Below, piece by piece: positions 604 through 61,052 of a stretch of DNA of 63,101 bases. A model generated the notes under the pieces. The model did not search any database. It saw nothing but the letters and a program-made list of their open reading frames with translations, and was not told where the DNA came from. The DNA comes from a virus, in the IMG/VR virus record IMGVR_UViG_3300035667_000002; one strand, written 5' to 3'. The translations under genes were made by a program, and so were the position numbers. Every line of letters begins with the position of its first letter. Position 1 is the first letter of the stretch.

Positions 604-632
604 ACGTTACAGGCATGACAGCTAAGTGTCAA
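604..632 (-). promoter_or_regulatory. conserved promoter
   Basis: TTGACActtagctgtcatgcctgTAACGT, 17-nt spacer. Drives 366..560. Confidence 0.7.
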
Positions 633-4538: not shown

Positions 4539-4699
4539 TGGGCGACGCGTTGATCGCGCTGGGCATGGTCCTGGCGGTGTTCGCTCTGCTCTACGGCGGG
4601 GCGCGGTTCATGGGCAACGGCCGGTGCTGGCGCTGCCGCAAGCTCTGCCCCCCGTGGTCGGTCTACTGCCGGAGGTGCCTCGATGGCCCAGAAGCCTAG
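4538..4699 (+). CDS. small membrane protein with Cys-rich tail (53 aa)
   Basis: TGATG overlap. N-terminal helix followed by CWRCRKLC...YCRRC. Not in the ORF track because it is under 60 aa. Confidence 0.4.
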   Translation: MGDALIALGMVLAVFALLYGGARFMGNGRCWRCRKLCPPWSVYCRRCLDGPEA

Positions 4700-4979
4700 G
4701 CCCGTCAAGCGCACGGCCCGCGAGATCGCGCGGCTGGTCTCGGTCACGATGCGCCTCGGGTCGTACCACATCGGGCCGGGTCACCGGGAGTTCGTGTGCC
4801 CGGTGGCGTACGAGGCCAAGAGCACCCAGGACGGCGTCTCGCACCGGTTCGCGGTGCGGGTGCAGGTCTGGGAGAAGCCTGACCGGGTGCCCCTGGTCAA
4901 GCTGGCCTTGGCCCAGCACCTGGCGGATGCCGACACCAACGGTGAGCCCTGTCAGGACGCGCACCGCCGGAAGGGTTGA
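4683..4979 (+). CDS. hypothetical protein
   Basis: 98-aa ORF with good GC3. Confidence 0.55.
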   Translation: MAQKPRPVKRTAREIARLVSVTMRLGSYHIGPGHREFVCPVAYEAKSTQDGVSHRFAVRVQVWEKPDRVPLVKLALAQHLADADTNGEPCQDAHRRKG

Positions 4980-5004
4980 CACTTAGACGTCATGCCTGTA
5001 ATGT
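4976..5004 (+). promoter_or_regulatory. conserved promoter
   Basis: TTGACActtagacgtcatgcctgTAATGT. Drives 5057..5542. Confidence 0.7.
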
Positions 5005-11895: not shown

Positions 11896-12561
11896 TCACC
11901 ACTTGCTGGCGCACGTCTTGCCCATCATCCGCTCGATCGAGTCCTCGTCGGTCAGGACCCGGCCGCACCGCACGCACACCCCGTAGAGCGCACCGAACTC
12001 TTTGGCCTGCTCAATGGTCATCTTGTGGGCGGGAGTGAGCTTGGTGACCGCACCGGGGGTGTAGGCCCATCCGGCGGCCTGGCCCTTGATCTCCGGGACC
12101 ACCAGGAGCTTGGCGTACTGCTGGCTGGAGCCGTGGACCGCGTGCTGGACCTTGTAGATCGAGCCGTCCAGGAGGTAGATCCCGTCCTCCAGCTTGACCG
12201 GCGCGGCCGGCCCGGCCTTGGGGGCGCTCTTGAGCCGGGCCAGGGTGGCGTCCACATCGCGGAACAGGACCGTCCGGGCGTCCAGGTCGATCCCGCGCTC
12301 GGCGGCCAGGTTGCGCATGAACCGCTGCTGACCTTCGGTGGCCATCCGCTCGGCGGCCGGCGGGGCCTCCACGGGCACGAGGTCCAGGAGGTCGGCCTCG
12401 TAGCTCTCGCGCTCCCGGTCGGCCAGGTGCTGCTCCGCCGCATTGTCGTCGGCCTCGGGGGTCCAGGTGCCCCACACCGCGCGGCGGGTGGCGTCCGAGA
12501 CGTTCGAGCGGAGCGACGGGACCTGAATCCCCTTGTAGGCGGTGGTGATCATGCGAGTCAT
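11896..12561 (-). CDS. DUF6011-type protein
   Basis: GGAGGG RBS and promoter 12599..12627. C-terminal YGVCVRCGRVLTDEDSIERMMGKTCA matches my memory of DUF6011. Confidence 0.6.
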   Translation of the reverse strand: MTRMITTAYKGIQVPSLRSNVSDATRRAVWGTWTPEADDNAAEQHLADRERESYEADLLDLVPVEAPPAAERMATEGQQRFMRNLAAERGIDLDARTVLFRDVDATLARLKSAPKAGPAAPVKLEDGIYLLDGSIYKVQHAVHGSSQQYAKLLVVPEIKGQAAGWAYTPGAVTKLTPAHKMTIEQAKEFGALYGVCVRCGRVLTDEDSIERMMGKTCASKW

Positions 12562-12598
12562 TGTGTGTCCCTCCGGGTCGGTGTGCCTTACACCCAGA

Positions 12599-12627
12599 AC
12601 ATTACAGGCATGGCGGTTAAGTGTCAA
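12599..12627 (-). promoter_or_regulatory. conserved promoter
   Basis: TTGACActtaaccgccatgcctgTAATGT, an identical 29-mer to 12952..12980. Confidence 0.7.
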
Positions 12628-12640
12628 CCCCCAAAATGAA

Positions 12641-12666
12641 GCGGGCCCGAGTTGCCTCGGGCCCGC
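12641..12666 (-). terminator. hairpin terminator
   Basis: GCGGGCCCGAG-ttgc-CTCGGGCCCGC, after 12671..12895. Confidence 0.55.
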
Positions 12667-12670
12667 GTTC

Positions 12671-12895
12671 TCAGAGAACCTCTCGCGTGGTGTCGGTGAT
12701 CGTGACGTTGATCGAGTTGCCCCGGGCCGCGTCCTCGATGGCCGCCAGGAACTCGGTCACCTCGTCCTTGTCCCGGGTCCGGGTGGTCACCTGGCGGTTG
12801 CGGCCGGCGGTGGTGTCCCGCACGTCCACGAAGTACCGGCCGGCCACGCTCGGGTTGGTGCTCAGGGAGATCGTGACGCTCATGGTTCGGTTCAT
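12671..12895 (-). CDS. hypothetical protein (74 aa)
   Basis: GAGAGG RBS, promoter 12952..12980 and terminator 12641..12666. Confidence 0.5.
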   Translation of the reverse strand: MNRTMSVTISLSTNPSVAGRYFVDVRDTTAGRNRQVTTRTRDKDEVTEFLAAIEDAARGNSINVTITDTTREVL

Positions 12896-12951
12896 CGGTG
12901 TTCCTCTCGCTCTCGCTCTGGAGTTGTGTCCCGCTCGGCCTTGCACTGACT

Positions 12952-12980
12952 ACATTACAGGCATGGCGGTTAAGTGTCAA
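12952..12980 (-). promoter_or_regulatory. conserved promoter
   Basis: TTGACActtaaccgccatgcctgTAATGT. Confidence 0.7.
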
Positions 12981-12993
12981 GGCCCAGACGAAA

Positions 12994-13013
12994 GCGGCCC
13001 CCGGAGGGGCCGC
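12994..13013 (-). terminator. hairpin terminator
   Basis: GCGGCCCC-cgga-GGGGCCGC, after 13023..13286. Confidence 0.5.
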
Positions 13014-13022
13014 TCGCTTCGT

Positions 13023-13286
13023 TCACCAGATGCCGCGCTGCCCGGCCATCTGCTCCTCTAGCAGGGTGTCCTGCCAGCCCCGGTTCTCCAGGTGGCGGAC
13101 CAGCGCACCCTCGGCCCAAATCTCGGCCGCGTTGTCGAGTTCCATCTGGGCGGTGAGCTGGTAGCAGGTCCGGACGCTGGTGACGTTCGCGTGGTAGGTC
13201 CGGTCCTCGGGGTGGTGGTTCCCGCACTTCACTCCGCCGGCCGTGGCCTTGACCTCGTACGCGCCCACTAGCTCGATCTCGTTCAT
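13023..13286 (-). CDS. hypothetical protein (87 aa)
   Basis: GAGAGGAA RBS, promoter 13341..13369 and terminator 12994..13013. Confidence 0.55.
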   Translation of the reverse strand: MNEIELVGAYEVKATAGGVKCGNHHPEDRTYHANVTSVRTCYQLTAQMELDNAAEIWAEGALVRHLENRGWQDTLLEEQMAGQRGIW

Positions 13287-13340
13287 TGTTGGTGTTCCTC
13301 TCGCTCTGGAGTTTTTGTCCCGCTCTGCCTTACAAAGAGA

Positions 13341-13369
13341 ACATTACAGGTATGACGGTGAAGTGTCAA
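13341..13369 (-). promoter_or_regulatory. conserved promoter
   Basis: TTGACActtcaccgtcatacctgTAATGT. Confidence 0.7.
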
Positions 13370-13412
13370 GCCCTCCGACCAGCCCTTTTTCGGGGGCATC
13401 CTGGCCAGAGTG

Positions 13413-13420
13413 TCCTAGGA
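13413..13420. promoter_or_regulatory. isolated TCCTAGGA box upstream of the capsid gene
   Basis: gagtgTCCTAGGAcgctg lies within the small inverted repeat CCAGAGT...ACTCTGG, 100 nt before ATG 13520. Confidence 0.4.
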
Positions 13421-19832: not shown

Positions 19833-19884
19833 GGTGCCCTTAGATTGAGGCCGTCCGGGCACCTACGGCCTTGGTACGTCGAGC

Positions 19885-20034
19885 CTAACGGACCGCCGTC
19901 TGGGTCACGGCCGGCGCACTCTTCCACTGGCCGGAGCCGTCATCGGGCTGGCACGCGAACAGTGTCCCGACGACCAGCGCGCCGATCATGCCCATGATCG
20001 CGGCCCGGCGGGTGATGGCGATAGCGACAGTCAT
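19885..20034 (-). CDS. small putative lipoprotein (49 aa)
   Basis: GAGGGGG RBS. Signal-like helix ending in LFAC (lipobox-like). Degenerate promoter 20072..20100. Not in the ORF track as a separate start. Confidence 0.4.
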   Translation of the reverse strand: MTVAIAITRRAAIMGMIGALVVGTLFACQPDDGSGQWKSAPAVTQTAVR

Positions 20035-20071
20035 TTGACCCCCTCGAATTGGCAGAACATCTGTCAATCTC

Positions 20072-20100
20072 ACTTTACAGGACTGACGTCGAGGTGTCCA
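20072..20100 (-). promoter_or_regulatory. degenerate copy of conserved promoter
   Basis: TGGACAcctcgacgtcagtcctgTAAAGT. It lies in the 3' end of the XRE gene, upstream of 19885..20034. Confidence 0.4.
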
Positions 20101-20287
20101 GCACGGCCTCCAGGCGGAGCCCGAGCGCGGCGGCCCACGCGTTGAGCGAGTGGAGCCGGGGGTCAACCTTGCCGGCCTCCCACTGCCAGATCGTATTCTG
20201 GCTCTTCTCCAACTTGTCCGCGAGCACCATCTGGGACCAGCCCAGCTCGATCCGCCGTGCCTTGAAAGTTGCGATGACACTGTTCAT
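20075..20287 (-). CDS. XRE/Cro-CI family HTH regulator (70 aa), leaderless
   Basis: LGWSQMVLADKLEKSQNTIWQWEAGK is a classic XRE HTH. The ATG lies 7 nt after the TAAGGT -10. Confidence 0.7.
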   Translation of the reverse strand: MNSVIATFKARRIELGWSQMVLADKLEKSQNTIWQWEAGKVDPRLHSLNAWAAALGLRLEAVLDTSTSVL

Positions 20288-20294
20288 GGTGTCG

Positions 20295-20323
20295 ACCTTA
20301 CAGCCATCACGGCGAGGTGACAA
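20295..20323 (-). promoter_or_regulatory. promoter of XRE gene (leaderless)
   Basis: TTGTCAcctcgccgtgatggctgTAAGGT, then 7 nt to the ATG. Confidence 0.55.
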
Positions 20324-20356
20324 GCGCGCTTCTGCTTAGACGGCTAGCCTGGTGGC

Positions 20357-21549: not shown

Positions 21550-22262
21550 CCTACGAGGTAGATCCCGAGGCGTCGCTGGCGCTCTGGGATCTGGACCTGG
21601 AACTCGGGGGCCGGCACTTCATCGTGCCGGCCCTCCCCGCGTCGGACTGGTTCCCGATCCTTTTGTCCGGGGATGTCTCCCTGGTTCTTGACTCGATCGT
21701 GTCAACGCCAGGTTCGCAGGGTACCGACCCCCTGGAGCTTCTGCTGGAGGGCAAGCTCACCGCCGAGGAGCTGGGCGAACGGCTACTTGAGGCGGTCGAG
21801 TCCGCCGCCGGCCGGCCGTTCGGCGTGGCCGTGGTCCTGGCGTACGCGGCCACCCAACGCTGGCCTGCGGTCAATGGCCGCCTTGTGCTCGCGGGGTTCG
21901 ACTGGACCGAGCGGCCCCTGGGCGCGGCCCTCGATGCGATCTACGCGGTGTTCACCGAGAACCAGAACGAGGAAGGCCGGGCCAAGTTCGAGGCCCTGCT
22001 GGAGACGCCGATCAACACCGGCCCCAAGGGTACGATCCGCAAGGCCGATCAGGCCAGGGTGGAAGAGGGGTTCGCCGCGCTCGCGGGGCCCAAGCCCACT
22101 ACGGGCGCTGTGCGAGCCATCGGCGCGCCGTCCGACGGTGCACGTTCCAGAACTCGGACACCGCCGCGATCTCTCCCCCAGGGCGCAGCGTCCGGCGCGC
22201 CCACGAAGCGACCACGGCCACGCGCTGGAAGTGGTCCGGCGGCCAGCTCCGCAGGCCCGTAG
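21546..22262 (+). CDS. tail-associated protein (possible chaperone)
   Basis: GTGA overlap. GC3 is good up to about 22100. The last 160 nt have poor GC3 and overlap the reverse gene 22099..22545. Confidence 0.5.
   Translation: MTYEVDPEASLALWDLDLELGGRHFIVPALPASDWFPILLSGDVSLVLDSIVSTPGSQGTDPLELLLEGKLTAEELGERLLEAVESAAGRPFGVAVVLAYAATQRWPAVNGRLVLAGFDWTERPLGAALDAIYAVFTENQNEEGRAKFEALLETPINTGPKGTIRKADQARVEEGFAALAGPKPTTGAVRAIGAPSDGARSRTRTPPRSLPQGAASGAPTKRPRPRAGSGPAASSAGP
21688..21705. promoter_or_regulatory. intragenic operator-like palindrome
   Basis: TTGACtcgatcgtGTCAA in 21546..22262. Confidence 0.45.
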
Positions 22263-22545
22263 GGCGCGGCATGGCCAACATGCGGAGCTGAGCCTCGGCA
22301 TCACCCGCGAGAGCGGCTCCGGCCACCTGGCCGATCTGCCTCATCGGCAACTGGGAGAGCACGGTCGAGGTGATGGGCGGCCGGAGATCGTGTGGCTCCT
22401 CGCGGCGCGCGATCAGGCACAACTCCACCACACCGGGCAGCGATGGATCGTCGGACATACGCACCCGTACGGTCCACGGCCAGGCCGGATCTACCAGCTC
22501 GATCTCGTCTCCGAGGTTCGAGAGCTGGGTCCGTGAGACATCCAT
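22099..22545 (-). CDS. reverse-strand protein with C-terminal HTH-like segment
   Basis: GC3 is strongly in favour of this strand. C-terminal NVHRRTARRWLAQ. TAGGAT lies 6 nt upstream of the ATG, so it may be leaderless. Confidence 0.6.
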   Translation of the reverse strand: MDVSRTQLSNLGDEIELVDPAWPWTVRVRMSDDPSLPGVVELCLIARREEPHDLRPPITSTVLSQLPMRQIGQVAGAALAGDAEAQLRMLAMPRPTGLRSWPPDHFQRVAVVASWARRTLRPGGEIAAVSEFWNVHRRTARRWLAQRP

Positions 22546-22618
22546 CGGGCCATCCTAGCCCAAATGTCACCGTGTCTGGACTCGCTGTGACACCGTACGG
22601 CACCGTACGCTGGCGGCT

Positions 22619-37670: not shown

Positions 37671-37940
37671 GTGACGCAAAGGCAGCTTCCACCGCTACGG
37701 CGGGACCTGTTTTTCCTGCTCCTCGGCGGAGCGTGGGGAACGTGGATCGTGTTCACCGCCGGCCCGTGGCCGCTCATGGCCGTGAGCGCGGCGACGATGC
37801 TCGGGCCGGGGTTCTTGCGGCTCTGGCTCTCCGGGCCCGCTATCGGGGCCAGTCCGCCCTCGCAGCCACTGGAGCCGGCGGGGCCCTCGTCCTCGTCCTC
37901 GCCTATGCCCTTGCCGGCGGGCCCGGGGGGCACTGAGTAA
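37671..37940 (+). CDS. membrane protein
   Basis: GTG start. Two hydrophobic helices and a Pro/Ser-rich tail. Confidence 0.45.
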   Translation: MTQRQLPPLRRDLFFLLLGGAWGTWIVFTAGPWPLMAVSAATMLGPGFLRLWLSGPAIGASPPSQPLEPAGPSSSSSPMPLPAGPGGTE

Positions 37941-38263
37941 TGGAAGCCCGGGAGACCACCGCGCCGGCCGTCACCTGGCAGATCCCGAGGAACGTCTGGG
38001 TCATCCTGGTGACCTGGGCGCTGGCTGTGGTCCTGCTCTCGGGGCTGTTCGCGTTCTGGCAGTATCGGGACCAGCAGGCGGCCAAGGCCGCTCAGCGTGA
38101 GCAGGACCGCCAGATGTGCCTCACCCTGGACCTGTTCCGGGGAGGCCCGGAGCCGGTACCTGGCCCGGCTGGTGACCGCTCGCGCGTGGTGATCGCGCGC
38201 ATCCACGACCAGCAAACCGCGCTCGGGTGCGATCAGCTCCGGCCGAAACCCGAAGCATCCTAG
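37940..38263 (+). CDS. membrane-anchored protein
   Basis: TAATG overlap. One TM helix. Its stop codon TAG lies inside the first TCCTAGGA box. Confidence 0.5.
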   Translation: MEARETTAPAVTWQIPRNVWVILVTWALAVVLLSGLFAFWQYRDQQAAKAAQREQDRQMCLTLDLFRGGPEPVPGPAGDRSRVVIARIHDQQTALGCDQLRPKPEAS

Positions 38264-38360
38264 GAAGGTTCGAGCCGGCGGCTGAAGAAGCATCCTAGGA
38301 TGATCTTGGTAGCGGGCGCGAGAAGCATCCTAGGACGATCACCAAGATCCACACATGCGG

Positions 38361-38388
38361 GAGCCCCCGGCCTTTCGGCCCGGGGCTC
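38361..38388 (-). terminator. hairpin terminator
   Basis: GAGCCCC(c)GGCC-tttc-GGCC(c)GGGGCTC, after 38404..38580. Confidence 0.5.
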
Positions 38389-38403
38389 TTTCGCGTGGGT
38401 GGC

Positions 38404-38580
38404 TCAGGCGTTGTTGTTCATCAGCCAGCAGGCGAGCCAGGAGGCGCTCAGGTTGCCACCGAGGACGGAGACCGGCTCGCCGGTCTTGGCCTCGAACCGG
38501 GCGGCCAGTTCGGCCTTACCCAGTGCAATGAGGGCCTTCTTCTCGGCTGCGAACTGGGCCTTGATCTGGGTCTTGGTCAT
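38404..38580 (-). CDS. small protein (58 aa)
   Basis: Translated by hand: MTKTQIKAQFAAEKKAL.... GAGGAG RBS, promoter 38623..38651, terminator 38361..38388. Below the ORF-track length cut-off. Confidence 0.45.
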   Translation of the reverse strand: MTKTQIKAQFAAEKKALIALGKAELAARFEAKTGEPVSVLGGNLSASWLACWLMNNNA

Positions 38581-38603
38581 TTCGATCTCCTCTGTGTTGT
38601 CTT

Positions 38604-38685
38604 GCTCTCCCTTACAAGATGAACATTACAGGCTTGACTGTTAAGCGTCAACCTTACAGGCGAGGTCTGACCGAAAGTATGAGTT
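38604..38685. repeat. 82-nt duplicated promoter/leader block, copy 1
   Basis: 81/82 identical to 39220..39301. Confidence 0.85.
38623..38651 (-). promoter_or_regulatory. conserved promoter
   Basis: TTGACGcttaacagtcaagcctgTAATGT. Confidence 0.7.
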
Positions 38686-38767
38686 GCCATGGTTACCGCA
38701 CCATCCTAGGACGGTTCGAGCAGCAGGGGGAGAAGCATCCTAGGACGGTTAAAAGATCCACGAAAAA

Positions 38768-38789
38768 GCCCCGACCTCTCGGCCGGGGC
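38768..38789 (-). terminator. intrinsic terminator
   Basis: GC-rich stem followed on the minus strand by TTTTT (rc of aaaaa at 38763..38767). Confidence 0.6.
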
Positions 38790-38801
38790 CTCGCGGGTGG
38801 C

Positions 38802-39197
38802 TCAGAGCGCGGCCTCGAACTCCTCGCGGCTGGTGTAGCCACCGACGATCTTGGAGCCGCGAGTCGCGAAATCGAGCGTGTAGCCCAGCTTGTCCGCCGC
38901 CTTGGCCAGCGACCGGTACCGCTTGATCCCGGTCTCGTTCTTGCCGCCGTTGACACCGTCCTTGGCCAGCGCCGCGCGGCCCATGATGTAGCCCCAGGTC
39001 TTGGTCCCGGCCGGGAGGTATTCGCGGCACGTGCTGGCCACCAGGCCGGCGGACTTGGGGAACAGGGCCACGATCGCCTCGGCGGCGGCGCGGTCCTCGG
39101 TCAGTGTCTGGATCTCGTAGGCGCTGACCTGGCCGTTGTCGGGCGAGTAGAACGCCATGATGGTCAGGGTCTGGGCGGCGGCTGCGGTGTTCGTCAT
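38802..39197 (-). CDS. hypothetical protein, paralog of 39418..39735
   Basis: 131 aa. Shares LFPKS...GGKNET...RSLxKxAxKxG with its neighbour. Has its own promoter and terminator. Confidence 0.6.
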   Translation of the reverse strand: MTNTAAAAQTLTIMAFYSPDNGQVSAYEIQTLTEDRAAAEAIVALFPKSAGLVASTCREYLPAGTKTWGYIMGRAALAKDGVNGGKNETGIKRYRSLAKAADKLGYTLDFATRGSKIVGGYTSREEFEAAL

Positions 39198-39219
39198 TTT
39201 CGATCTCCCTCTGTGTGTC

Positions 39220-39301
39220 GCTCTCCCTTACAAGATGAACATTACAGGCTTGACTGTTAAGCGTCAACCTCACAGGCGAGGTCTGACCGAAAGTATGAGT
39301 T
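39220..39301. repeat. 82-nt duplicated promoter/leader block, copy 2
   Basis: 81/82 identical to 38604..38685. Confidence 0.85.
39239..39267 (-). promoter_or_regulatory. conserved promoter
   Basis: TTGACGcttaacagtcaagcctgTAATGT, identical to 38623..38651. Confidence 0.7.
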
Positions 39302-39381
39302 ACCAGGGTAAACCCTGCTTCCTAGGATGCTTCTCGGCCGCCGGCTCGAACCGTCCTAGGACGCTGATCAAGATCATTAAA

Positions 39382-39408
39382 GAGCCCCGACCGGGAGGGC
39401 CGGGGCTC
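39382..39408 (-). terminator. hairpin terminator
   Basis: GAGCCCCGaCC-gggag-GGcCGGGGCTC, after 39418..39735. Confidence 0.55.
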
Positions 39409-39417
39409 GCGGGGGGA

Positions 39418-39735
39418 TCAGGCGGCCATGTACGCGGCCAGCGCGGCCTCCAGCTCGGCCAGGGTCTTGTACGAGTTGGTGATCATGCTGGCCGTGTCGA
39501 TCTCCACACCGTGCTTGGCAGCGTTCTTGATCAGCGAGCGGAGCTGGCGGACGGCGGTCTCGTTCTTGCCCCCGGTGCGAGCGTCAGCCGCGAACCGGAC
39601 GCCGGTCCACCAGCCACCCGCGCGGAGCTTGGTCGACTTGGGGAAGAGAGAAGCGGTCTCGTGGTCGGTGGCGGTGTAGTTCGCCAGCATGATCTCGCCG
39701 GTCCGGGTGTCGTAGCTGGCGTGGATCTTGATCAT
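39418..39735 (-). CDS. hypothetical protein, paralog of 38802..39197
   Basis: Start at an internal ATG with a GAGGGAG RBS. The upstream part of the ORF is the promoter motif read as protein. Confidence 0.6.
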   Translation of the reverse strand: MIKIHASYDTRTGEIMLANYTATDHETASLFPKSTKLRAGGWWTGVRFAADARTGGKNETAVRQLRSLIKNAAKHGVEIDTASMITNSYKTLAELEAALAAYMAA

Positions 39736-39778
39736 TGTCTGTCTCCCTCGGTGTGTTCCGCTCTCCCTTACATCCATA

Positions 39779-39807
39779 ACTTTACAGGCGTGACGGTTAA
39801 GTGTCAA
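39779..39807 (-). promoter_or_regulatory. conserved promoter
   Basis: TTGACActtaaccgtcacgcctgTAAAGT. Confidence 0.7.
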
Positions 39808-39920
39808 CTCCCTGGTCAAGATTCTTTCAGATGATCTTGAGGACCTTCCTAGGATGCTTCTCGGCCGCCGGCTCGATGCGTCCTAGGATGCTTCCCACCG
39901 AGCGTCCTAGGATGCCGGTA

Positions 39921-39950
39921 TTGCGCTCCTGGACGGCGTGCCTGTAGAGT
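39921..39950 (+). promoter_or_regulatory. promoter (variant)
   Basis: TTGCGC-18 nt-(gcctg)TAGAGT. Drives 39990..40265. Confidence 0.45.
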
Positions 39951-39989
39951 GCCAGGTAGCTAATCAACCTACTGACCAGGAGAGAGACC

Positions 39990-40265
39990 ATGACGGACCA
40001 GACCACGGAGGTCCCGGAGGACCGCGAGTTCGTGGGCTACGGACCGGCGGCCGAACACCTGGGGCTCCAGCGAAACACGCTCTCCAGCTACGTGGCCCGA
40101 GGCATCGGCCCGGCCGTGGCCAAGAACCCGGACGGCTCGGACCGGCGCGAGATCGTCGGCCAGTACGTGCTCCCGGTGTTCCTCCAGAGCGAGCTAGACC
40201 GGTGGCGCGATGAGCGGCCAGGCCAGGGTGCCCGTACGGACCTCGCGCCGGCCGCCGCCGCGTAA
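39990..40265 (+). CDS. HTH DNA-binding protein (excisionase/MerR-like fold)
   Basis: GYGPAAEHLGLQRNTLSSYVARG...LDRW. AGGAGAGAG RBS. Confidence 0.65.
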   Translation: MTDQTTEVPEDREFVGYGPAAEHLGLQRNTLSSYVARGIGPAVAKNPDGSDRREIVGQYVLPVFLQSELDRWRDERPGQGARTDLAPAAAA

Positions 40266-40392
40266 CCCCATAAGAGGGGGTCCGACGGGCGTCCACGACC
40301 AACTAAAAACCGTCCTAGGAAGGCTCGGCAGAACCATCCTAGGAAGGGACAACTCAAGACGCGTCCGCCCACCGCTTGGCTGATGAGCGGTC

Positions 40393-40424
40393 AGAAGGCC
40401 CTCCCCCTAGGGGGAGGGCCTTCT
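40393..40424 (-). terminator. perfect 32-nt palindrome terminator
   Basis: AGAAGGCCCTCCCCCTAGGGGGAGGGCCTTCT, after 40431..40613. Confidence 0.6.
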
Positions 40425-40430
40425 GGTGTC

Positions 40431-40613
40431 TCAGGCGTTCCGGGCCTGGACCTTGCGGGCCTTGGTGCCGAGGCCGGCCCGGTGGGCCCGACCCAGGTTC
40501 ATGGCCAGCGCGTTCTCGGTCCGGCCCTCGGCCTTGCCGGCGGCGCGCCACGCCTTGTCGAGCTTGGCGATCTTGCGGATCAGCTTGCCGTTGGCCCGCT
40601 TGGTGTTCGTCAT
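40431..40613 (-). CDS. small basic protein (60 aa), paralog of 366..560
   Basis: Promoter 40663..40691 and perfect palindromic terminator 40393..40424. Confidence 0.5.
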   Translation of the reverse strand: MTNTKRANGKLIRKIAKLDKAWRAAGKAEGRTENALAMNLGRAHRAGLGTKARKVQARNA

Positions 40614-40662: not shown

Positions 40663-40691
40663 ACATTACAGGCTTGACGGGTAAGTGTCAA
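40663..40691 (-). promoter_or_regulatory. conserved promoter
   Basis: TTGACActtacccgtcaagcctgTAATGT. Back-to-back with 40738..40766. Confidence 0.7.
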
Positions 40692-40737
40692 CAGGCACGC
40701 CTGTGACGTATGCCACATCGCAGGATGCCCTGTGAGG

Positions 40738-40766
40738 TTGACACGTAAGAGTCACGCCTGTAATGT
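40738..40766 (+). promoter_or_regulatory. conserved promoter
   Basis: TTGACAcgtaagagtcacgcctgTAATGT. Drives 40813..41991. Confidence 0.7.
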
Positions 40767-42077: not shown

Positions 42078-42141
42078 AGTTACGGTGGAGAAGGCTCTCC
42101 GCTGGTCGGCTACACTCGGTTTCAGACGAGAGGGGAAGATC

Positions 42142-42870
42142 ATGCAGCCAGCGCACGTCCCGATCCACCTACGCACCGACGGGGGCAAACTGCTCCGGCT
42201 CCCGGAGATCATGGCCAAGACCGGGTTCGCGGACGGCACCGTCCGCAGCAAATACCACGCGGGCACCCTGGAGCCGGTGTGGAAGCTCGGCCGCCGCCTT
42301 GTCGCCTGGGAGGCCGACCTGGACGCGTGGCTGGCCGCCGCCCAGCAGAGGACCACCAAGCGGCCCCAGCTCCGCACAGACGAACTGAGCGGGCTAGCCG
42401 ACATGCTGACCGAACTTCCCGATCTGGAGCCGCTCAAGCGGTTGATCCTGCGGGAGATGACCATCCGGGCGGTCATGGTCGAGACCGGGGAGTCGCGAGA
42501 CATCGTGACCGACCTGGCGGACGCTAGCGACAGCATGGGCCAGGAGGCCGTGCTGGGCCTGACCGACGGCGCGCCGACGACACTGCGGGACGCGGTGGTC
42601 CGGTACGTCGACATGCTGGGCGACGATGGGGAGGGCACCGAGACGCCCAAGGTCGTGGTGATCGATGAGCTGACCTCGATCCTGAACTACCCGTACCCCG
42701 GTGTGGCCGGCTCCGAGCTGGAGGCCGACGAGGACTCCGAGGACGAGACCATGATCTTGAGGGTCAACGGTCGCGAGGTCTACCGAGCCAACCACGACGT
42801 CCACGGGTACGCGGGCATGTCCGCCGCCCGTGAGGCGGCCGAGGCGGTGCTCCGGGCGCTCGCGGAGTAG
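42142..42870 (+). CDS. HTH DNA-binding protein with acidic C-terminal domain
   Basis: GAGAGGGGAAG RBS. N-terminal LLRLPEIMAKTGFADGTVRSKY...LVAWEADLDAWL is AlpA/Xis-like. Confidence 0.6.
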   Translation: MQPAHVPIHLRTDGGKLLRLPEIMAKTGFADGTVRSKYHAGTLEPVWKLGRRLVAWEADLDAWLAAAQQRTTKRPQLRTDELSGLADMLTELPDLEPLKRLILREMTIRAVMVETGESRDIVTDLADASDSMGQEAVLGLTDGAPTTLRDAVVRYVDMLGDDGEGTETPKVVVIDELTSILNYPYPGVAGSELEADEDSEDETMILRVNGREVYRANHDVHGYAGMSAAREAAEAVLRALAE

Positions 42871-46396: not shown

Positions 46397-46885
46397 ATGA
46401 CTGTGGAGTTCAACCTGGACGACACCCAGGTACCCGACGGGACCGTGTTGCTGGCGGGGATCGCGTTCGACTCGATCCCGCACAAGACCTGGACGTATTC
46501 GCTGATCAAGGCCGGCGGCCGGTGGTACACCTCGGGCACCGGCAAGGCCCCGCAGGATGCCGGTTGGGGTGCGATCCGGCGGTGGCTGGCCCGCGAGGGC
46601 ACCCGCGTGGTCTACATCGACGCGGTGACCGCCCGGGACCGGCTCTGGGAAGAGGACGCGGTCACCCCCAAGGGCGAGCGCGCACACCTCACGATCGTGC
46701 GTCCTGGTGAGGCTGAGCGGCCGGACCGGCCCAGCGTGCCGTGGACCAGCACCATCGACGTTGACGTCCCGCTCCACGACGGACCGGACACCCACGGGAT
46801 CGACCCCCAGGACCGCCGGCTCCTGGACGAGGTGGACGACCGCGAGAGCGAGCGCCGGATGCGCTCGACGGAAGGCTACGAGTGA
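46397..46885 (+). CDS. hypothetical protein
   Basis: GGAGG RBS. 162 aa. Confidence 0.55.
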   Translation: MTVEFNLDDTQVPDGTVLLAGIAFDSIPHKTWTYSLIKAGGRWYTSGTGKAPQDAGWGAIRRWLAREGTRVVYIDAVTARDRLWEEDAVTPKGERAHLTIVRPGEAERPDRPSVPWTSTIDVDVPLHDGPDTHGIDPQDRRLLDEVDDRESERRMRSTEGYE

Positions 46886-47103
46886 CCTACGGAGCCGGCC
46901 GGCACCCGAACCGGTTCTTGGTCGAGTGCCCCGCGTGCCAGTTTCGCCGGGTGATCCTCCCCGGTGGCGTGCTGGTCTGCCTGCTCTGTGACCGGAGCTA
47001 TTCCAAGGACAACACCCTGGCCGGACCCGGGAACGCTCCCACGGCAGAGGAGCCACCGATCACCAACGGCCCGTTCTGGGACCCTCCCAAACTCAAGGGT
47101 TGA
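46882..47103 (+). CDS. zinc-ribbon protein
   Basis: GTGA overlap. CPACQ...CLLC motif. Confidence 0.5.
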   Translation: MTYGAGRHPNRFLVECPACQFRRVILPGGVLVCLLCDRSYSKDNTLAGPGNAPTAEEPPITNGPFWDPPKLKG

Positions 47104-60755: not shown

Positions 60756-61027
60756 CCAACGACGCTCGGTTGATCATGGCGCAAGAGTTGTCGGCCCAGC
60801 TCCGGCGGATGCCGGTCCCCCTGGCCGAGATCGTGGCGAACCTGGAGGTGGCGCTCACCGCCGCCGGCTACCGGATCGCGCCGATCGCGGAACAGGTCAC
60901 GGACGCGGTGGTCCGGCACGTGACGCGGTACCCCTGCACGTGCGCCGGTCGGCGCGGATGCATGGAGCACCCGTTCGGTAACCCCCTCCCCGATTGGCGT
61001 GGCGTAGACACCCGCGCGACAGGTTGA
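60752..61027 (+). CDS. hypothetical protein
   Basis: GTGA overlap. 91 aa. Confidence 0.5.
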   Translation: MTNDARLIMAQELSAQLRRMPVPLAEIVANLEVALTAAGYRIAPIAEQVTDAVVRHVTRYPCTCAGRRGCMEHPFGNPLPDWRGVDTRATG

Positions 61028-61052
61028 CACTTCACAGTCATGCATGTAACGT
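61024..61052 (+). promoter_or_regulatory. conserved promoter
   Basis: TTGACActtcacagtcatgcatgTAACGT. Drives 61108..61533. Confidence 0.7.

What the first reader, a model, noticed from the sequence alone, without database searches (positions are those of the whole stretch)
38258..40344. Array of 12 TCCTAGGA palindromes at or near the boundaries of five monocistronic cassettes
The 8-bp palindrome TCCTAGGA contains CTAG and CCTAGG, which are scarce in the rest of the window. It occurs 12 times in 2.1 kb, in five clusters: 38258/38293/38328, 38704/38738, 39320/39354, 39847/39881/39905 and 40313/40337. Paired boxes are 34-35 bp apart (24 bp in two cases).
The boxes are embedded in a roughly 50-bp unit, TCCTAGGA-cGGTTCGAGCCGGCGGCCGAGAAGCA-TCCTAGGA. 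Two units are in one orientation and two are inverted. Each cluster sits between one cassette's promoter and the neighbouring cassette's 3' end or terminator.
Elsewhere I saw one full box (13413, upstream of the capsid gene), a half box at 22552 (upstream of reverse gene 22099..22545), and bare CCTAGG at 4695 and inside hairpin 40393..40424.
Candidate roles are operator sites for the adjacent HTH protein (39990..40265), replication-origin iterons next to the replication module, a centromere-like site, or recombination sites that shuffle cassettes. I cannot distinguish these from sequence alone.
Basis: partly seen in the sequence, partly recalled or inferred. Interest (0 to 1): 0.75.

Follow-up and report, generated by a model that had tools for sequence, protein, structure and literature searches.

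The report
Palindromic boxes flanking phage gene cassettes

Summary
TCCTAGGA occurs 13 times in the window (0.21 expected), 12 of them in 38258-40344, in five clusters at the stated coordinates.

The site is longer and asymmetric: GAAGCA-TCCTAGGA-CGGTTCG, often with a nearby CAAGATC motif. Every cluster lies between two transcription units. Four sit next to a terminator hairpin. Three lie about 80-135 bp upstream of a conserved sigma-70-like early promoter. One abuts the promoter of the HTH gene.

Close relatives (L033, 92-97% identical) and an intermediate relative (L080) keep boxes at homologous places. 40 of 40 alignable box bases are identical, against 66% for the other aligned columns. 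The number of boxes per cluster changes by whole 24- or 34-bp units.

Actinoplanes phage phiAsp2 and 28 of 29 further relatives keep the cassette layout and an HTH protein with the same recognition helix, but have no boxes. The adjacent HTH is therefore unlikely to be the binder.

The composite motif recurs in unrelated actinophage contigs (L014, L041, L066).

Best reading, at moderate confidence: lineage-specific protein-binding boundary or operator sites inserted into terminator-promoter junction modules of the PeSL type. The binder was not identified. Origin, centromere and dedicated recombination-site readings are poorly supported.

The parts
38258..38335 (.). Cluster 1: three boxes (38258, 38293, 38328), 35 bp apart. 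The TAG of box 1 is the stop codon of the last late gene, 37940..38263.
   Evidence: conserved in L030, L033 and L036; two boxes in L080
38704..38745 (.). Cluster 2: two boxes 34 bp apart. It lies between the promoter of the 58-aa cassette and the terminator of the 131-aa cassette. Box centres are at about -92 and -126 relative to the estimated transcription start.
39320..39361 (.). Cluster 3: two boxes 34 bp apart, with the spacer inverted relative to cluster 2. It lies between the promoter of the 131-aa cassette and the terminator of the 105-aa cassette.
39847..39912 (.). Cluster 4: three boxes (spacings 34 and 24 bp) between the divergent promoters of the 105-aa cassette and the HTH gene. 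The last box ends 8 bp before the -35 element of the HTH promoter.
   Evidence: two of the three boxes are conserved in L080
40313..40344 (.). Cluster 5: two boxes 24 bp apart, between the stop codon of the HTH gene and the palindromic terminator 40392-40425.
   Evidence: one box in L080; one box plus a degenerate copy in L070
13413..13420 (.). Lone thirteenth box. It lies 44 bp upstream of the -35 element of minus-strand promoter 13341-13369 and 100 bp before the capsid gene.
   Evidence: conservation in relatives not established
39816..39840 (.). Companion inverted repeat TCAAGAT-N11-ATCTTGA beside cluster 4. The 13-mer TCAAGATTCTTTC is identical in the unrelated contig L066.
38302..38349 (.). 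Companion inverted repeat GATCTTGGT / ACCAAGATC bracketing box 3. The same arrangement brackets a box in L014.
   Evidence: I23
38753..38758 (+). AAGATC between box 5 and the terminator. A matching CAAGATC at 39369-39375 lies between box 7 and its terminator.
38623..38651 (-). Conserved early promoter TTGACGCTTAACAGTCAAGCCTGTAATGT of the 58-aa cassette. Further copies lie at 39239-39267(-), 39779-39807(-), 40663-40691(-) and 40738-40766(+).
   Evidence: 12 copies in the window, 0 expected
39921..39950 (+). Putative promoter of the HTH gene: TTGCGC, 18 nt, TAGAGT.
   Evidence: read from the sequence; conserved in L033 and L080 and recognisable in phiAsp2
38361..38388 (.). Terminator hairpin. 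The other terminator hairpins are at 38766-38796, 39382-39408 and 40392-40425.
   Evidence: I14, I9, I18, I2. The strict T-tract scan found none, so these are hairpins with a weak U-tract or none.
38404..38580 (-). 58-aa cassette gene, function unknown. It is absent from phiAsp2.
38802..39197 (-). 131-aa cassette gene (phrog_7216 family). It is a paralogue of 39418..39735 and is absent from L033.
39418..39735 (-). 105-aa cassette gene, paralogue of the 131-aa protein.
39990..40265 (+). 91-aa HTH_17-like (MerR/Xis-type) DNA-binding protein, conserved throughout the phiAsp2-like family.
40431..40613 (-). 60-aa cassette gene, 75% identical to phiAsp2 Pas40.
38581..38711 (.). Junction module (5' UTR, promoter, upstream segment and first box), repeated directly at 39198-39327. 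It is the likely substrate for cassette gain and loss.
   Evidence: 119 of 133 aligned columns identical

Best explanation
The boxes are binding sites for a sequence-specific DNA-binding protein, probably a dimer, that has not been identified. The core is a palindrome with asymmetric flanks: GAAGCA-TCCTAGGA-CGGTTCG. The adjacent HTH protein is unlikely to be the binder.

In this phage lineage the sites were inserted, in arrays of 1-3, into the terminator-promoter junction modules that separate small early accessory cassettes at the boundary between late and early genes. Bound protein would act in cis on transcription at these boundaries in two ways. It would co-regulate the promoters of the three box-flanked cassettes and the HTH gene, by repression or activation. 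It would also insulate neighbouring or convergent transcription units whose terminators have weak U-tracts.

The arrays grow and shrink by duplication or loss of whole 24- or 34-bp units.

Shown: the sites exist, they are enriched, they are conserved under selection, they lie at transcription-unit boundaries, the number of units varies, they are uncoupled from the HTH gene, and they recur in unrelated phages. Inferred: that a protein binds them, and what that binding does.
For: Enrichment is extreme: 13 copies against 0.21 expected. All copies are intergenic, apart from box 1, whose TAG is the stop codon of 37940..38263.

Selection acts on the sequence itself. Between the window and L080, 40 of 40 alignable box bases are identical, while the other aligned columns are 66% identical. 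Between the window and L033 the spacers carry substitutions and indels, changing the spacing from 35/35 to 34/36, but no box is altered. This favours recognition of a sequence over a requirement for structure or spacing.

The positions suit regulatory sites. Box centres lie at about -79 to -137 from three copies of the early promoter, and at about -48, -72 and -106 from the HTH promoter. Four of the five clusters lie 20-50 bp from a terminator hairpin.

Only a subset of the 12 conserved promoters has boxes, which fits a sub-regulon.

The asymmetric 11-mer GCATCCTAGGA, together with CAAGATC and/or GGTTCG, recurs in intergenic early regions of unrelated actinophage contigs. These are L014 (a 19-nt exact match plus a 103-bp stretch at 76% identity), L041 (two boxes 35 bp apart), L066 (three boxes) and L001/L002. 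It also occurs in the distant relative L070.
Against: No binder was found. The HTH protein is invariant in phages that lack boxes. The AlpA-like N-terminal domain of gp42085 is fused only in the box-rich clade. However, standalone homologues at 50-65% identity occur in the box-less loci L100 and L118-L121. L070 has a box but not the domain.

No protein family is shared among the box-bearing unrelated loci, apart from a DUF6011-containing C-terminal region shared with L001.

Two clusters lie between convergent 3' ends, far from any promoter, which is unusual for operators. Site orientation and spacing (19-45 bp across phages) show no helical phasing.

No paired boxes were found in actinobacterial genomes among the 185,579 species scanned. 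A host regulon with the same paired arrangement is therefore not evident.
Confidence: 0.45

Rival explanations
1. The boxes are a selfish or mobile palindromic repeat, or simply part of repeated junction DNA that spreads by recombination and duplication (REP/MITE-like, or a passenger in PeSL-type modules). They have no regulatory role of their own. Their main effect is to supply homology for cassette shuffling.
For: The distribution is patchy. The boxes occur only in the window's clade and as one site in L070, out of more than 30 relatives. Near-identical composites occur in unrelated phages. The number of units per cluster varies. Spacers are inverted or chimeric between the palindromic boxes. 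The cassette indel between the window and L033 has its breakpoint at a box unit. The phage encodes a YqaJ-type recombination exonuclease. The 131-aa cassette is flanked by inverted 42-bp units.
Against: The 8-mer is conserved exactly while the spacers drift. Neutral junk DNA would not show this. No transposase or integrase was found. There are no target-site duplications. Paired boxes are absent from 185,579 bacterial and archaeal species genomes, unlike REP elements. The cassette indel is explained by the 130-bp direct repeats alone.
Confidence: 0.2
2. The boxes are replication-origin iterons bound by a phage initiator.
For: They are repeated sites near the start of the early and replication region. 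The cumulative GC skew reaches its minimum at about 36-37 kb, just upstream of the array. Local GC drops to 0.63 from a window average of 0.68.
Against: Site orientations are mixed and spacing is irregular. The clusters are interleaved with five genes over 2.1 kb. Relatives share the helicase, the family A DNA polymerase and the recombination module but have no boxes. There is no AT-rich unwinding element and no good DnaA box. The turn in GC skew also coincides with the boundary between structural and early genes.
Confidence: 0.08
3. The boxes act at the RNA level. Pairs of palindromes fold into hairpins in 3' UTRs or read-through transcripts. They would serve as auxiliary terminators, 3' stabilisers or RNase III processing sites.
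For: Each cluster folds better than its shuffles, with z-scores from -2.1 to -4.5, and boxes 9 and 10 form a 15-bp stem. Clusters 1 and 5 lie in the 3' UTRs of plus-strand genes. Clusters 2 and 3 lie just downstream of minus-strand terminators.
Against: Any pair of palindromes will fold, so the z-scores follow trivially. Conservation is of the exact sequence, with no compensatory changes. The spacers do not keep their complementarity (cluster 2). Single boxes exist: cluster 5 of L080, box 13, and L014 position 1353. Cluster 4 lies upstream of both flanking promoters. Rfam gives no match.
Confidence: 0.07
4. The boxes are operators of the adjacent 91-aa HTH protein, which would regulate itself and control the cassettes.
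For: Boxes flank the HTH gene on both sides in the window, L033 and L080, and the only box in L070 lies just downstream of this gene. A box abuts the -35 element of the HTH promoter. The protein is a winged HTH of the Xis/MerR type.
Against: The HTH and recognition helix is the same in phiAsp2 and in the other relatives compared that lack boxes, and 28 of 29 further loci carrying the gene have no box. Only the loop or wing varies, and that variation does not track the presence of boxes. A conserved target fits better: the inverted repeat TTGAC-N8-GTCAA inside the family-wide promoter.
Confidence: 0.07
5. The boxes are centromere-like partition sites, or a cluster of sites related to restriction or modification (CCTAGG is the AvrII site).
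For: They are dispersed palindromes. Outside the array CCTAGG is scarce, at 3 copies against 7.35 expected.
Against: No ParA, ParB or integrase was found, so there is no sign of a plasmid-prophage lifestyle. The conserved unit is 11-19 bp and asymmetric, longer than a 6-bp restriction site.
Confidence: 0.04

Closest known systems
PeSL (promoter-early stem-loop) cassettes of T4-type phages (Arbiol et al. 2010, PMC2839356; Comeau et al. 2014, PMC4122927)
   Same: Both are repeated composite modules of a stem-loop terminator plus a strong sigma-70-like early promoter. Both flank small non-essential ORFs in hypervariable regions. In both, close relatives differ by whole cassettes with breakpoints in the modules.
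   Different: A PeSL consists only of a promoter and a stem-loop. Here an extra array of exact palindromic boxes, with companion motifs, sits between the terminator and the promoter. It is present only in one clade of the family. Minicircle formation has not been tested.
Dispersed repressor operators of actinophages: the phiC31 conserved inverted repeats (CIRs) and the L5/cluster A stoperators
   Same: Both involve many highly conserved copies of one short site in the intergenic DNA of a phage, near early promoters and terminators.
   Different: No cognate repressor gene was found, and no integrase or other lysogeny genes. Stoperators are asymmetric, tied in orientation to transcription, and spread across the genome. 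These boxes have a palindromic core and mixed orientation, and are confined to 2.1 kb plus one outlier.
Global operator regulons of IncP plasmids: KorA and KorB sites (from memory)
   Same: A single palindrome is reused at several transcription units at varying distances from the promoters, including sites far from any promoter.
   Different: That is a plasmid system with known binders. KorB also serves as a ParB. Nothing equivalent was identified here.
Tandem short-box operators with a CTAG core or an 8-bp unit: the TrpR operator and MetJ met boxes (from memory)
   Same: An 8-bp palindromic unit with a CTAG core, reiterated 2-3 times. In L001 and L066 adjacent CTAG cores lie 8 bp apart.
   Different: In the window the boxes are 24-35 bp apart, not contiguous. 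No TrpR-like or ribbon-helix-helix protein was identified.

Membership tests
PeSL-type terminator/early-promoter junction modules | A composite of a stem-loop terminator and a sigma-70-like early promoter, repeated many times | tested here: met
   There are 12 copies of the promoter motif and hairpins next to the cassettes. In phiAsp2 and at the 78-aa cassette of L033 the promoter directly abuts the hairpin.
PeSL-type terminator/early-promoter junction modules | Flank small accessory ORFs in hypervariable regions, with indels between close relatives whose breakpoints fall in the modules | tested here: met
   The window and L033 differ by the 131-aa and 78-aa cassettes. Cassette content differs in every relative examined.
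PeSL-type terminator/early-promoter junction modules | Recombination between modules yields encapsidated minicircles | not testable with these tools
   This needs PCR or sequencing of virion DNA.
Phage repressor operator regulon (phiC31 CIR or L5 stoperator type) | A cognate phage-encoded repressor, with a site at its own promoter | tested here: inconclusive
   The only DNA-binding gene flanked by boxes is the HTH at 39990, which is invariant in box-less phages. The AlpA-like domain of gp42085 has box-less homologues. The XRE protein at 20075..20287 has no box at its promoter.
Phage repressor operator regulon (phiC31 CIR or L5 stoperator type) | Stoperators: an asymmetric site in one orientation relative to transcription, spread through transcription units | tested here: not met
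   Orientation is mixed: clusters 1, 2 and 5 face one way and clusters 3 and 4 the other. The sites lie between transcription units and are confined to 2.1 kb.
Replication-origin iterons | Direct repeats in one orientation with regular spacing, next to an AT-rich unwinding element and the initiator gene | tested here: not met
   Orientation is mixed. Spacings are 24, 34 and 35 bp within clusters and 376-582 bp between clusters. No AT-rich block is present.
Replication-origin iterons | Co-conserved with the replication module across relatives | tested here: not met
   phiAsp2, L004 and L008 share the helicase, polymerase or recombinase genes but have no boxes.
Centromere (parS/parC) sites | ParA and ParB, or equivalent partition genes, in the same genome | tested here: not met
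   No such Pfam hit was found among about 40 proteins scanned. Not every ORF was scanned.
REP / MITE-like repeats | Many copies dispersed through cellular genomes, with a trans-acting transposase (RAYT or IS) | tested here: not met
   The paired-box pattern was found in only 2 unrelated MAG contigs among 185,579 species genomes. No transposase is present in the window. Single boxes in host genomes were not surveyed.
Integron attC-type cassette sites | Promoterless cassettes plus an adjacent tyrosine-recombinase integrase | tested here: not met
   Each cassette has its own promoter. No integrase was found.

The most novel reading that the evidence does not exclude
GCATCCTAGGA, with its CAAGATC and CGGTTCG companions, is a portable cis-element family specific to actinophages. 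It moves horizontally between unrelated phages, colonises terminator-promoter junctions, and multiplies there by unit duplication. It could be a phage-borne selfish palindromic repeat. Alternatively it could be a transferable insulator or operator that recruits a conserved host DNA-binding protein, so that otherwise unrelated phages tie a set of accessory early genes to the same host signal.
Probability: 0.25. Interest if true: 0.7.

Novelty: new variant of a known kind. Interest (0 to 1): 0.5.

Why it matters
If a protein does bind these boxes, they mark a small regulon or insulator system that controls fast-evolving accessory cassettes, which may be host-takeover or anti-defence genes. These sit at the boundary between late and early genes in a very large, almost unstudied family of soil actinophages: more than 1,000 capsid homologues were found.

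The same composite motif in unrelated phages would then point to a shared trans-acting factor, possibly from the host, that could be found experimentally.

The locus also shows that the terminator-promoter module mechanism of cassette shuffling, described for T4-like phages, has a counterpart in high-GC actinophages. It gives a dated example of a new cis-element being added to such modules.

Tried and rejected
The adjacent HTH protein as the binder. Rejected because its recognition helix is invariant in box-less relatives.

The AlpA-like N-terminal domain of gp42085..42870 as the binder. The domain is fused only in the window, L033 and L080. Standalone homologues occur in the box-less loci L100 and L118-L121, and L070 has a box without the domain. 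This leaves only one independent co-occurrence.

The cassette proteins as binders. No cassette is common to all box-bearing phages. The model of the 131-aa family (pLDDT 86) has no significant PDB match and no obvious DNA-binding fold. Homologues of that family elsewhere have no boxes.

A shared protein among the unrelated box-bearing loci. None was found, apart from a DUF6011-containing C-terminal region shared with L001.

A cultured phage carrying the motif. BLAST of cluster 4, L014 and L066 against 50,697 phage records found nothing relevant. Arthrobacter phage DrSierra, whose SprT-like gene resembles that of L066, has no boxes.

Literature. Full-text searches for TCCTAGGA, for CCTAGG with phage terms, and for phiAsp2 gave nothing on such a motif.

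Known RNA families: none.

Independent seed CCTAGGACGGTTCG in IMG/VR. The 27 hits look like chance matches, so the composite is rare.

Conservation of box 13. L117 has no box upstream of its capsid gene, but it probably belongs to a different lineage from L080, so this is uninformative.


Full report
**Observation.** TCCTAGGA occurs 13 times in the 63,101-bp window. Dinucleotide-preserving shuffles give a mean of 0.21 and never more than 2. The thirteenth is at 13413. CCTAGG occurs 15 times (7.35 expected). Outside the boxes it is found only at 4695 and in the palindromic hairpin at 40406. CTAG occurs only 34 times in the window, 13 of them in boxes, and none of the nine one-mismatch variants of the box lies in the array. 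Spacings within clusters are 35, 35, 34, 34, 34, 24 and 24 bp.

**What the window is.** It is a 68% GC actinophage genome. Its only match among 50,697 cultured phage records is Actinoplanes phage phiAsp2, with which it is syntenic along its whole length. A 29-bp sigma-70-like motif, TTGACryTTAAnnGTCAnGCCTGTAATGT, occurs 12 times (0 expected) upstream of small genes.

The array lies at the junction between the long plus-strand late operon, which ends at 37940..38263, and the plus-strand early operon, which starts at 40732. That operon encodes a SprT-like protein, then a YqaJ-type recombinase, a helicase and a family A DNA polymerase. Five monocistronic units lie between the two operons:
- a 58-aa gene (-)
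- a 131-aa gene (-)
- a 105-aa gene (-)
- a 91-aa HTH_17-like gene (+)
- a 60-aa gene (-)

Each minus-strand unit has a copy of the promoter and a hairpin terminator. The strict T-tract scan finds no canonical terminator, so these are hairpins with weak U-tracts.

**Anatomy of the sites.** The palindromic 8-mer is the core of a longer, asymmetric site. Ten of the 12 boxes have (G/C)CA on one side, and most have CG(G/C) or AGG on the other. The consensus is GAGAAGCA-TCCTAGGA-CGGTTCGAGC. Where boxes are 34-35 bp apart, the two flanks of neighbouring boxes fill the spacer. The asymmetric sites face one way in clusters 1, 2 and 5 and the other way in clusters 3 and 4.

A second motif accompanies the boxes, (C)AAGATC or its complement:
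- GATCTTGGT / ACCAAGATC brackets box 3.
- AAGATC lies between the last box and the terminator in clusters 2 and 3.
- TCAAGAT-N11-ATCTTGA lies beside cluster 4.

**Positions.** Every cluster lies between two transcription units.
- Clusters 2 and 3 lie between a terminator and the next promoter. Their box centres are at about -92 and -126 from the estimated start.
- Cluster 4 lies between divergent promoters. Its boxes are at about -79, -113 and -137 from the cassette promoter, and at about -48, -72 and -106 from the HTH promoter (TTGCGC-18-TAGAGT at 39921-39950).
- Clusters 1 and 5 lie between convergent 3' ends. The TAG of box 1 is the stop codon of the last late gene.

The start sites are estimates from the sequence and have not been mapped. 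Only 3 of the 12 conserved promoters have a box cluster upstream (a fourth, 13341-13369, has the lone box 13), as does the HTH promoter.

**Comparison within the family.** Several assemblies from other samples reproduce the boxes: L034 (identical), L030 and L036 (92-94%), and L033/L035 (92-97%). In L033 the spacers of cluster 1 carry substitutions and two indels, so the spacing is 34/36 instead of 35/35. One flank has changed from GCA to GTA. No box has changed.

L080/L081 is an intermediate relative; its cassette protein is 76% identical. It has five boxes at homologous places:
- two at the end of the late operon, again supplying the stop codon
- two between the cassette promoter and the HTH promoter
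- one after the HTH gene

All 40 alignable box bases are identical between the window and L080, against 66% for the other aligned columns. The chance of that at the background rate is below 1e-6. The number of boxes per cluster differs by whole units. The window has an extra 34-bp unit in cluster 4, an extra 24-bp unit in cluster 5 and a third box in cluster 1. The 8-mer is therefore under purifying selection, while spacing and copy number are not tightly constrained.

**Most relatives lack the boxes.** phiAsp2 has no TCCTAGGA and no CCTAGG in 58,638 bp. Its cassettes are joined by a promoter that directly abuts the upstream hairpin. Seven IMG/VR relatives found through the SprT-like gene have no box. 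So do 28 of 29 found through the HTH gene. No other repeated palindrome replaces the boxes.

The exception is L070/L113. It has one box followed by a degenerate copy, GAAGCA-TCCTAGGA-AACCAGGA-CGGTTCG. This lies between the terminators of the HTH gene and a convergent cassette, at the position of cluster 5. Within L033, the 78-aa cassette has a box-less junction of the phiAsp2 type. The boxes are therefore an addition to a pre-existing architecture and are not needed for cassette promoters to work.

**Who binds them?**

Its HTH and recognition helix are the same in phages with and without boxes. Only a loop varies, and that variation does not track the boxes. A conserved protein is more likely to recognise something that is also conserved. 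One candidate is the inverted repeat TTGAC-N8-GTCAA inside the family-wide promoter.

*The N-terminal domain of gp42085..42870.* This AlpA-like HTH domain (Pfam PF05930, just below threshold) is fused to a conserved C-terminal domain only in the window, L033 and L080. However, standalone homologues at 50-65% identity occur in L100, L118-L120 and L121, and their switch regions have no boxes. L070 has a box without the domain. Because the window, L033 and L080 form one clade, this amounts to a single co-occurrence. It remains a weak candidate.

*The cassette proteins.* No cassette protein is common to all box-bearing phages. The 131/105-aa family gives a confident model (pLDDT 86) with no significant PDB match and no obvious DNA-binding fold.

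*Lysogeny or partition proteins.* No integrase, ParA/ParB or large repressor was found among about 40 proteins scanned.

**Outside the family.** A scan for two GCATCCTAGGA sites 12-26 bp apart found nothing relevant in 185,579 species genomes. It found two IMG/VR contigs (L001, L002) and 20 metagenome contigs, most of them unrelated tandem repeats.

Several high-GC phage contigs that share no genes with the window carry the same composite in early intergenic DNA:
- L014 comes from the same soil metagenome as L030 and has a different promoter family. It has GAAGCATCCTAGGAAGATCTTG after terminators and before a promoter. One box is bracketed by AGATCTTGGT/ACCAAGATCT, as box 3 is in the window. 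It shares a 19-nt exact match and a 103-bp stretch at 76% identity that includes the terminator.
- L041 (54% GC) has GAAGCA-box, 27 nt, GAACCA-box-CGCTCAAGATGATCA in a divergent promoter region. The boxes are 35 bp apart.
- L066 (64% GC) has three boxes upstream of consecutive minus-strand cassettes. It has GAAGCA-TCCTAGGA-AGCTAGGA-CGGTTCG, AAGATCTT, and the 13-mer TCAAGATTCTTTC that is identical to window 39816-39828.

In these loci, boxes other than those used as the search seed also carry GCA on one side. The 11-mer is therefore the real unit.

The motif is rare. Scans of IMG/VR with GAAGCATCCTAGGA or CCTAGGACGGTTCG otherwise return matches at about the level expected by chance. No cultured phage shows it by BLAST. 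Full-text literature searches found no description of it.

**Cassette turnover.** The window and L033 differ by the presence of the 131-aa cassette in the window and a 78-aa cassette in L033. In L033 a single hybrid cluster joins the left flank of the window's cluster 2 to the right part of cluster 3. The 131-aa cassette is flanked on its left by direct repeats of about 130 bp, comprising 5' UTR, promoter, upstream segment and first box (119 of 133 identical). Homologous recombination between them, with the crossover at the box end, explains the difference. The phage encodes a YqaJ-type exonuclease.

This matches the PeSL mechanism described for T4-type phages. There, repeated early-promoter/stem-loop modules mediate the shuffling of small ORFs (PMC2839356, PMC4122927). 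The boxes lie inside such modules, but nothing shows that they are themselves recombination sites.

**Weighing the explanations.** Four features point to recognition of double-stranded DNA by a protein:
- exact sequence conservation amid drifting spacers
- reiteration in arrays of 1-3
- location at transcription-unit boundaries
- recurrence of a 14-29-nt composite in unrelated phages

I favour boundary or operator sites for an unidentified factor (0.45). The factor may be a host protein or a small phage protein that I could not detect. Such sites would co-regulate the box-flanked cassettes and the HTH gene, and would insulate closely packed or convergent units that have weak terminators.

A selfish or merely recombinogenic repeat is the main rival (0.2). 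The patchy distribution, variable unit number and inverted or chimeric spacers support it. The strict conservation of the 8-mer argues against it.

The other readings score lower:
- RNA hairpins (0.07). The fold z-scores of -2.1 to -4.5 follow trivially from paired palindromes. Single boxes exist, and one cluster lies upstream of both flanking promoters.
- Iterons (0.08). The GC-skew minimum near 36-37 kb is suggestive. It also coincides with a module boundary, and relatives with the same replication genes lack the boxes.
- Operators of the adjacent HTH (0.07).
- Partition or restriction-related sites (0.04).

**Verdict.** The array is real and statistically extreme, and its sequence is under selection. 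It is best filed as a new variant of known kinds: operator-like reiterated palindromes embedded in PeSL-like junction modules. The binder and the effect are unknown. Interest is moderate, at 0.5. It would rise if the shared factor or the mobility of the element were demonstrated.

Noticed in passing
window 604-632, 1052-1080, 4976-5004, 12599-12627, 12952-12980, 13341-13369, 38623-38651, 39239-39267, 39779-39807, 40663-40691, 40738-40766, 61024-61052: There are twelve copies of a 29-bp sigma-70-like promoter with an embedded inverted repeat, TTGAC-N8-GTCAA. The motif is shared with phiAsp2 and every relative examined. In phiAsp2 it directly abuts the upstream terminator hairpin, as in a PeSL. 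The embedded repeat is a plausible operator for the family-wide 91-aa HTH protein.
   Followed up: partly
window 38802-39197 and 39418-39735 (minus strand): These two cassette proteins are paralogues (phrog_7216) with invariant FPKS and GVNGGKNETGIKRYR motifs. The AlphaFold model has pLDDT 86 and an alpha/beta fold with no significant PDB match. Function is unknown. Homologues occur in other actinophage contigs (L084-L087).
   Followed up: partly
window 42085-42870: This early protein has an AlpA-like HTH domain of about 95 aa at its N-terminus, fused to a C-terminal domain that is conserved across the family. The fusion is seen only in the window, L033 and L080. Elsewhere the HTH domain is a separate small gene (L100, L118-L121) or is absent (phiAsp2 Pas44).
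   Followed up: yes
window 19850-20340 (minus strand): A leaderless XRE-family HTH gene of about 70 aa (Pfam HTH_3, E = 9e-10), followed by a small probable membrane protein, is inserted on the opposite strand inside the structural module. It is absent from phiAsp2. The 8-bp palindrome GGCTAGCC lies just upstream of its promoter. It looks like a moron, possibly an immunity or exclusion cassette.
   Followed up: partly
window 11896-13420: This is a second island of three minus-strand cassettes, between the portal and capsid genes, with the lone thirteenth box at its upstream edge. The 243-aa protein (11896..12627) ends in a DUF6011 zinc ribbon. Its C-terminal 90 aa are 55% identical to an ORF in L001, an unrelated contig that also carries GCATCCTAGGA boxes.
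   Followed up: partly
whole window (composition): Cumulative GC skew peaks at about 12-13 kb and reaches its minimum at about 36-37 kb. These are the two islands of minus-strand cassettes that bracket the structural operon. This may reflect replication or simply module composition.
   Followed up: no
L001 1-700: This is the end of a 79-kb IMG/VR contig at 61% GC. The stretch is very rich in CTAG (75 in 8.2 kb) and has many related motifs: TCCTAGC, TTCTAGCG, CACTAGGA and GCGCTAGCTAGCGC. It may be a larger family of CTAG-core sites.
   Followed up: no
L033 8915-8945 (5' UTR of the HTH gene): In L033 the HTH leader contains a split box, GTCCTAG-N7-CTTAGGAC. In the window the leader sequence at this point is unrelated. 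L080 has a much longer leader with a GC-rich hairpin. The leader evolves rapidly even though the promoter is conserved.
   Followed up: no
window 38258-38263; L010 4544-4549: The stop codon of the last late gene is the TAG inside box 1, in the window, L033 and L080 alike. phiAsp2 has CTAGG at the homologous stop codon, so box 1 may have grown out of a pre-existing stop-codon context.
   Followed up: partly
window 46882-47103: A 73-aa CxxC...CxxC zinc-ribbon protein is present in the window, and genes of the same length sit at the matching position in L033 and L080. It has no hit in phiAsp2 or the other relatives that cover this region. Its presence therefore tracks the box-bearing clade, but this is again a single lineage.
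   Followed up: no
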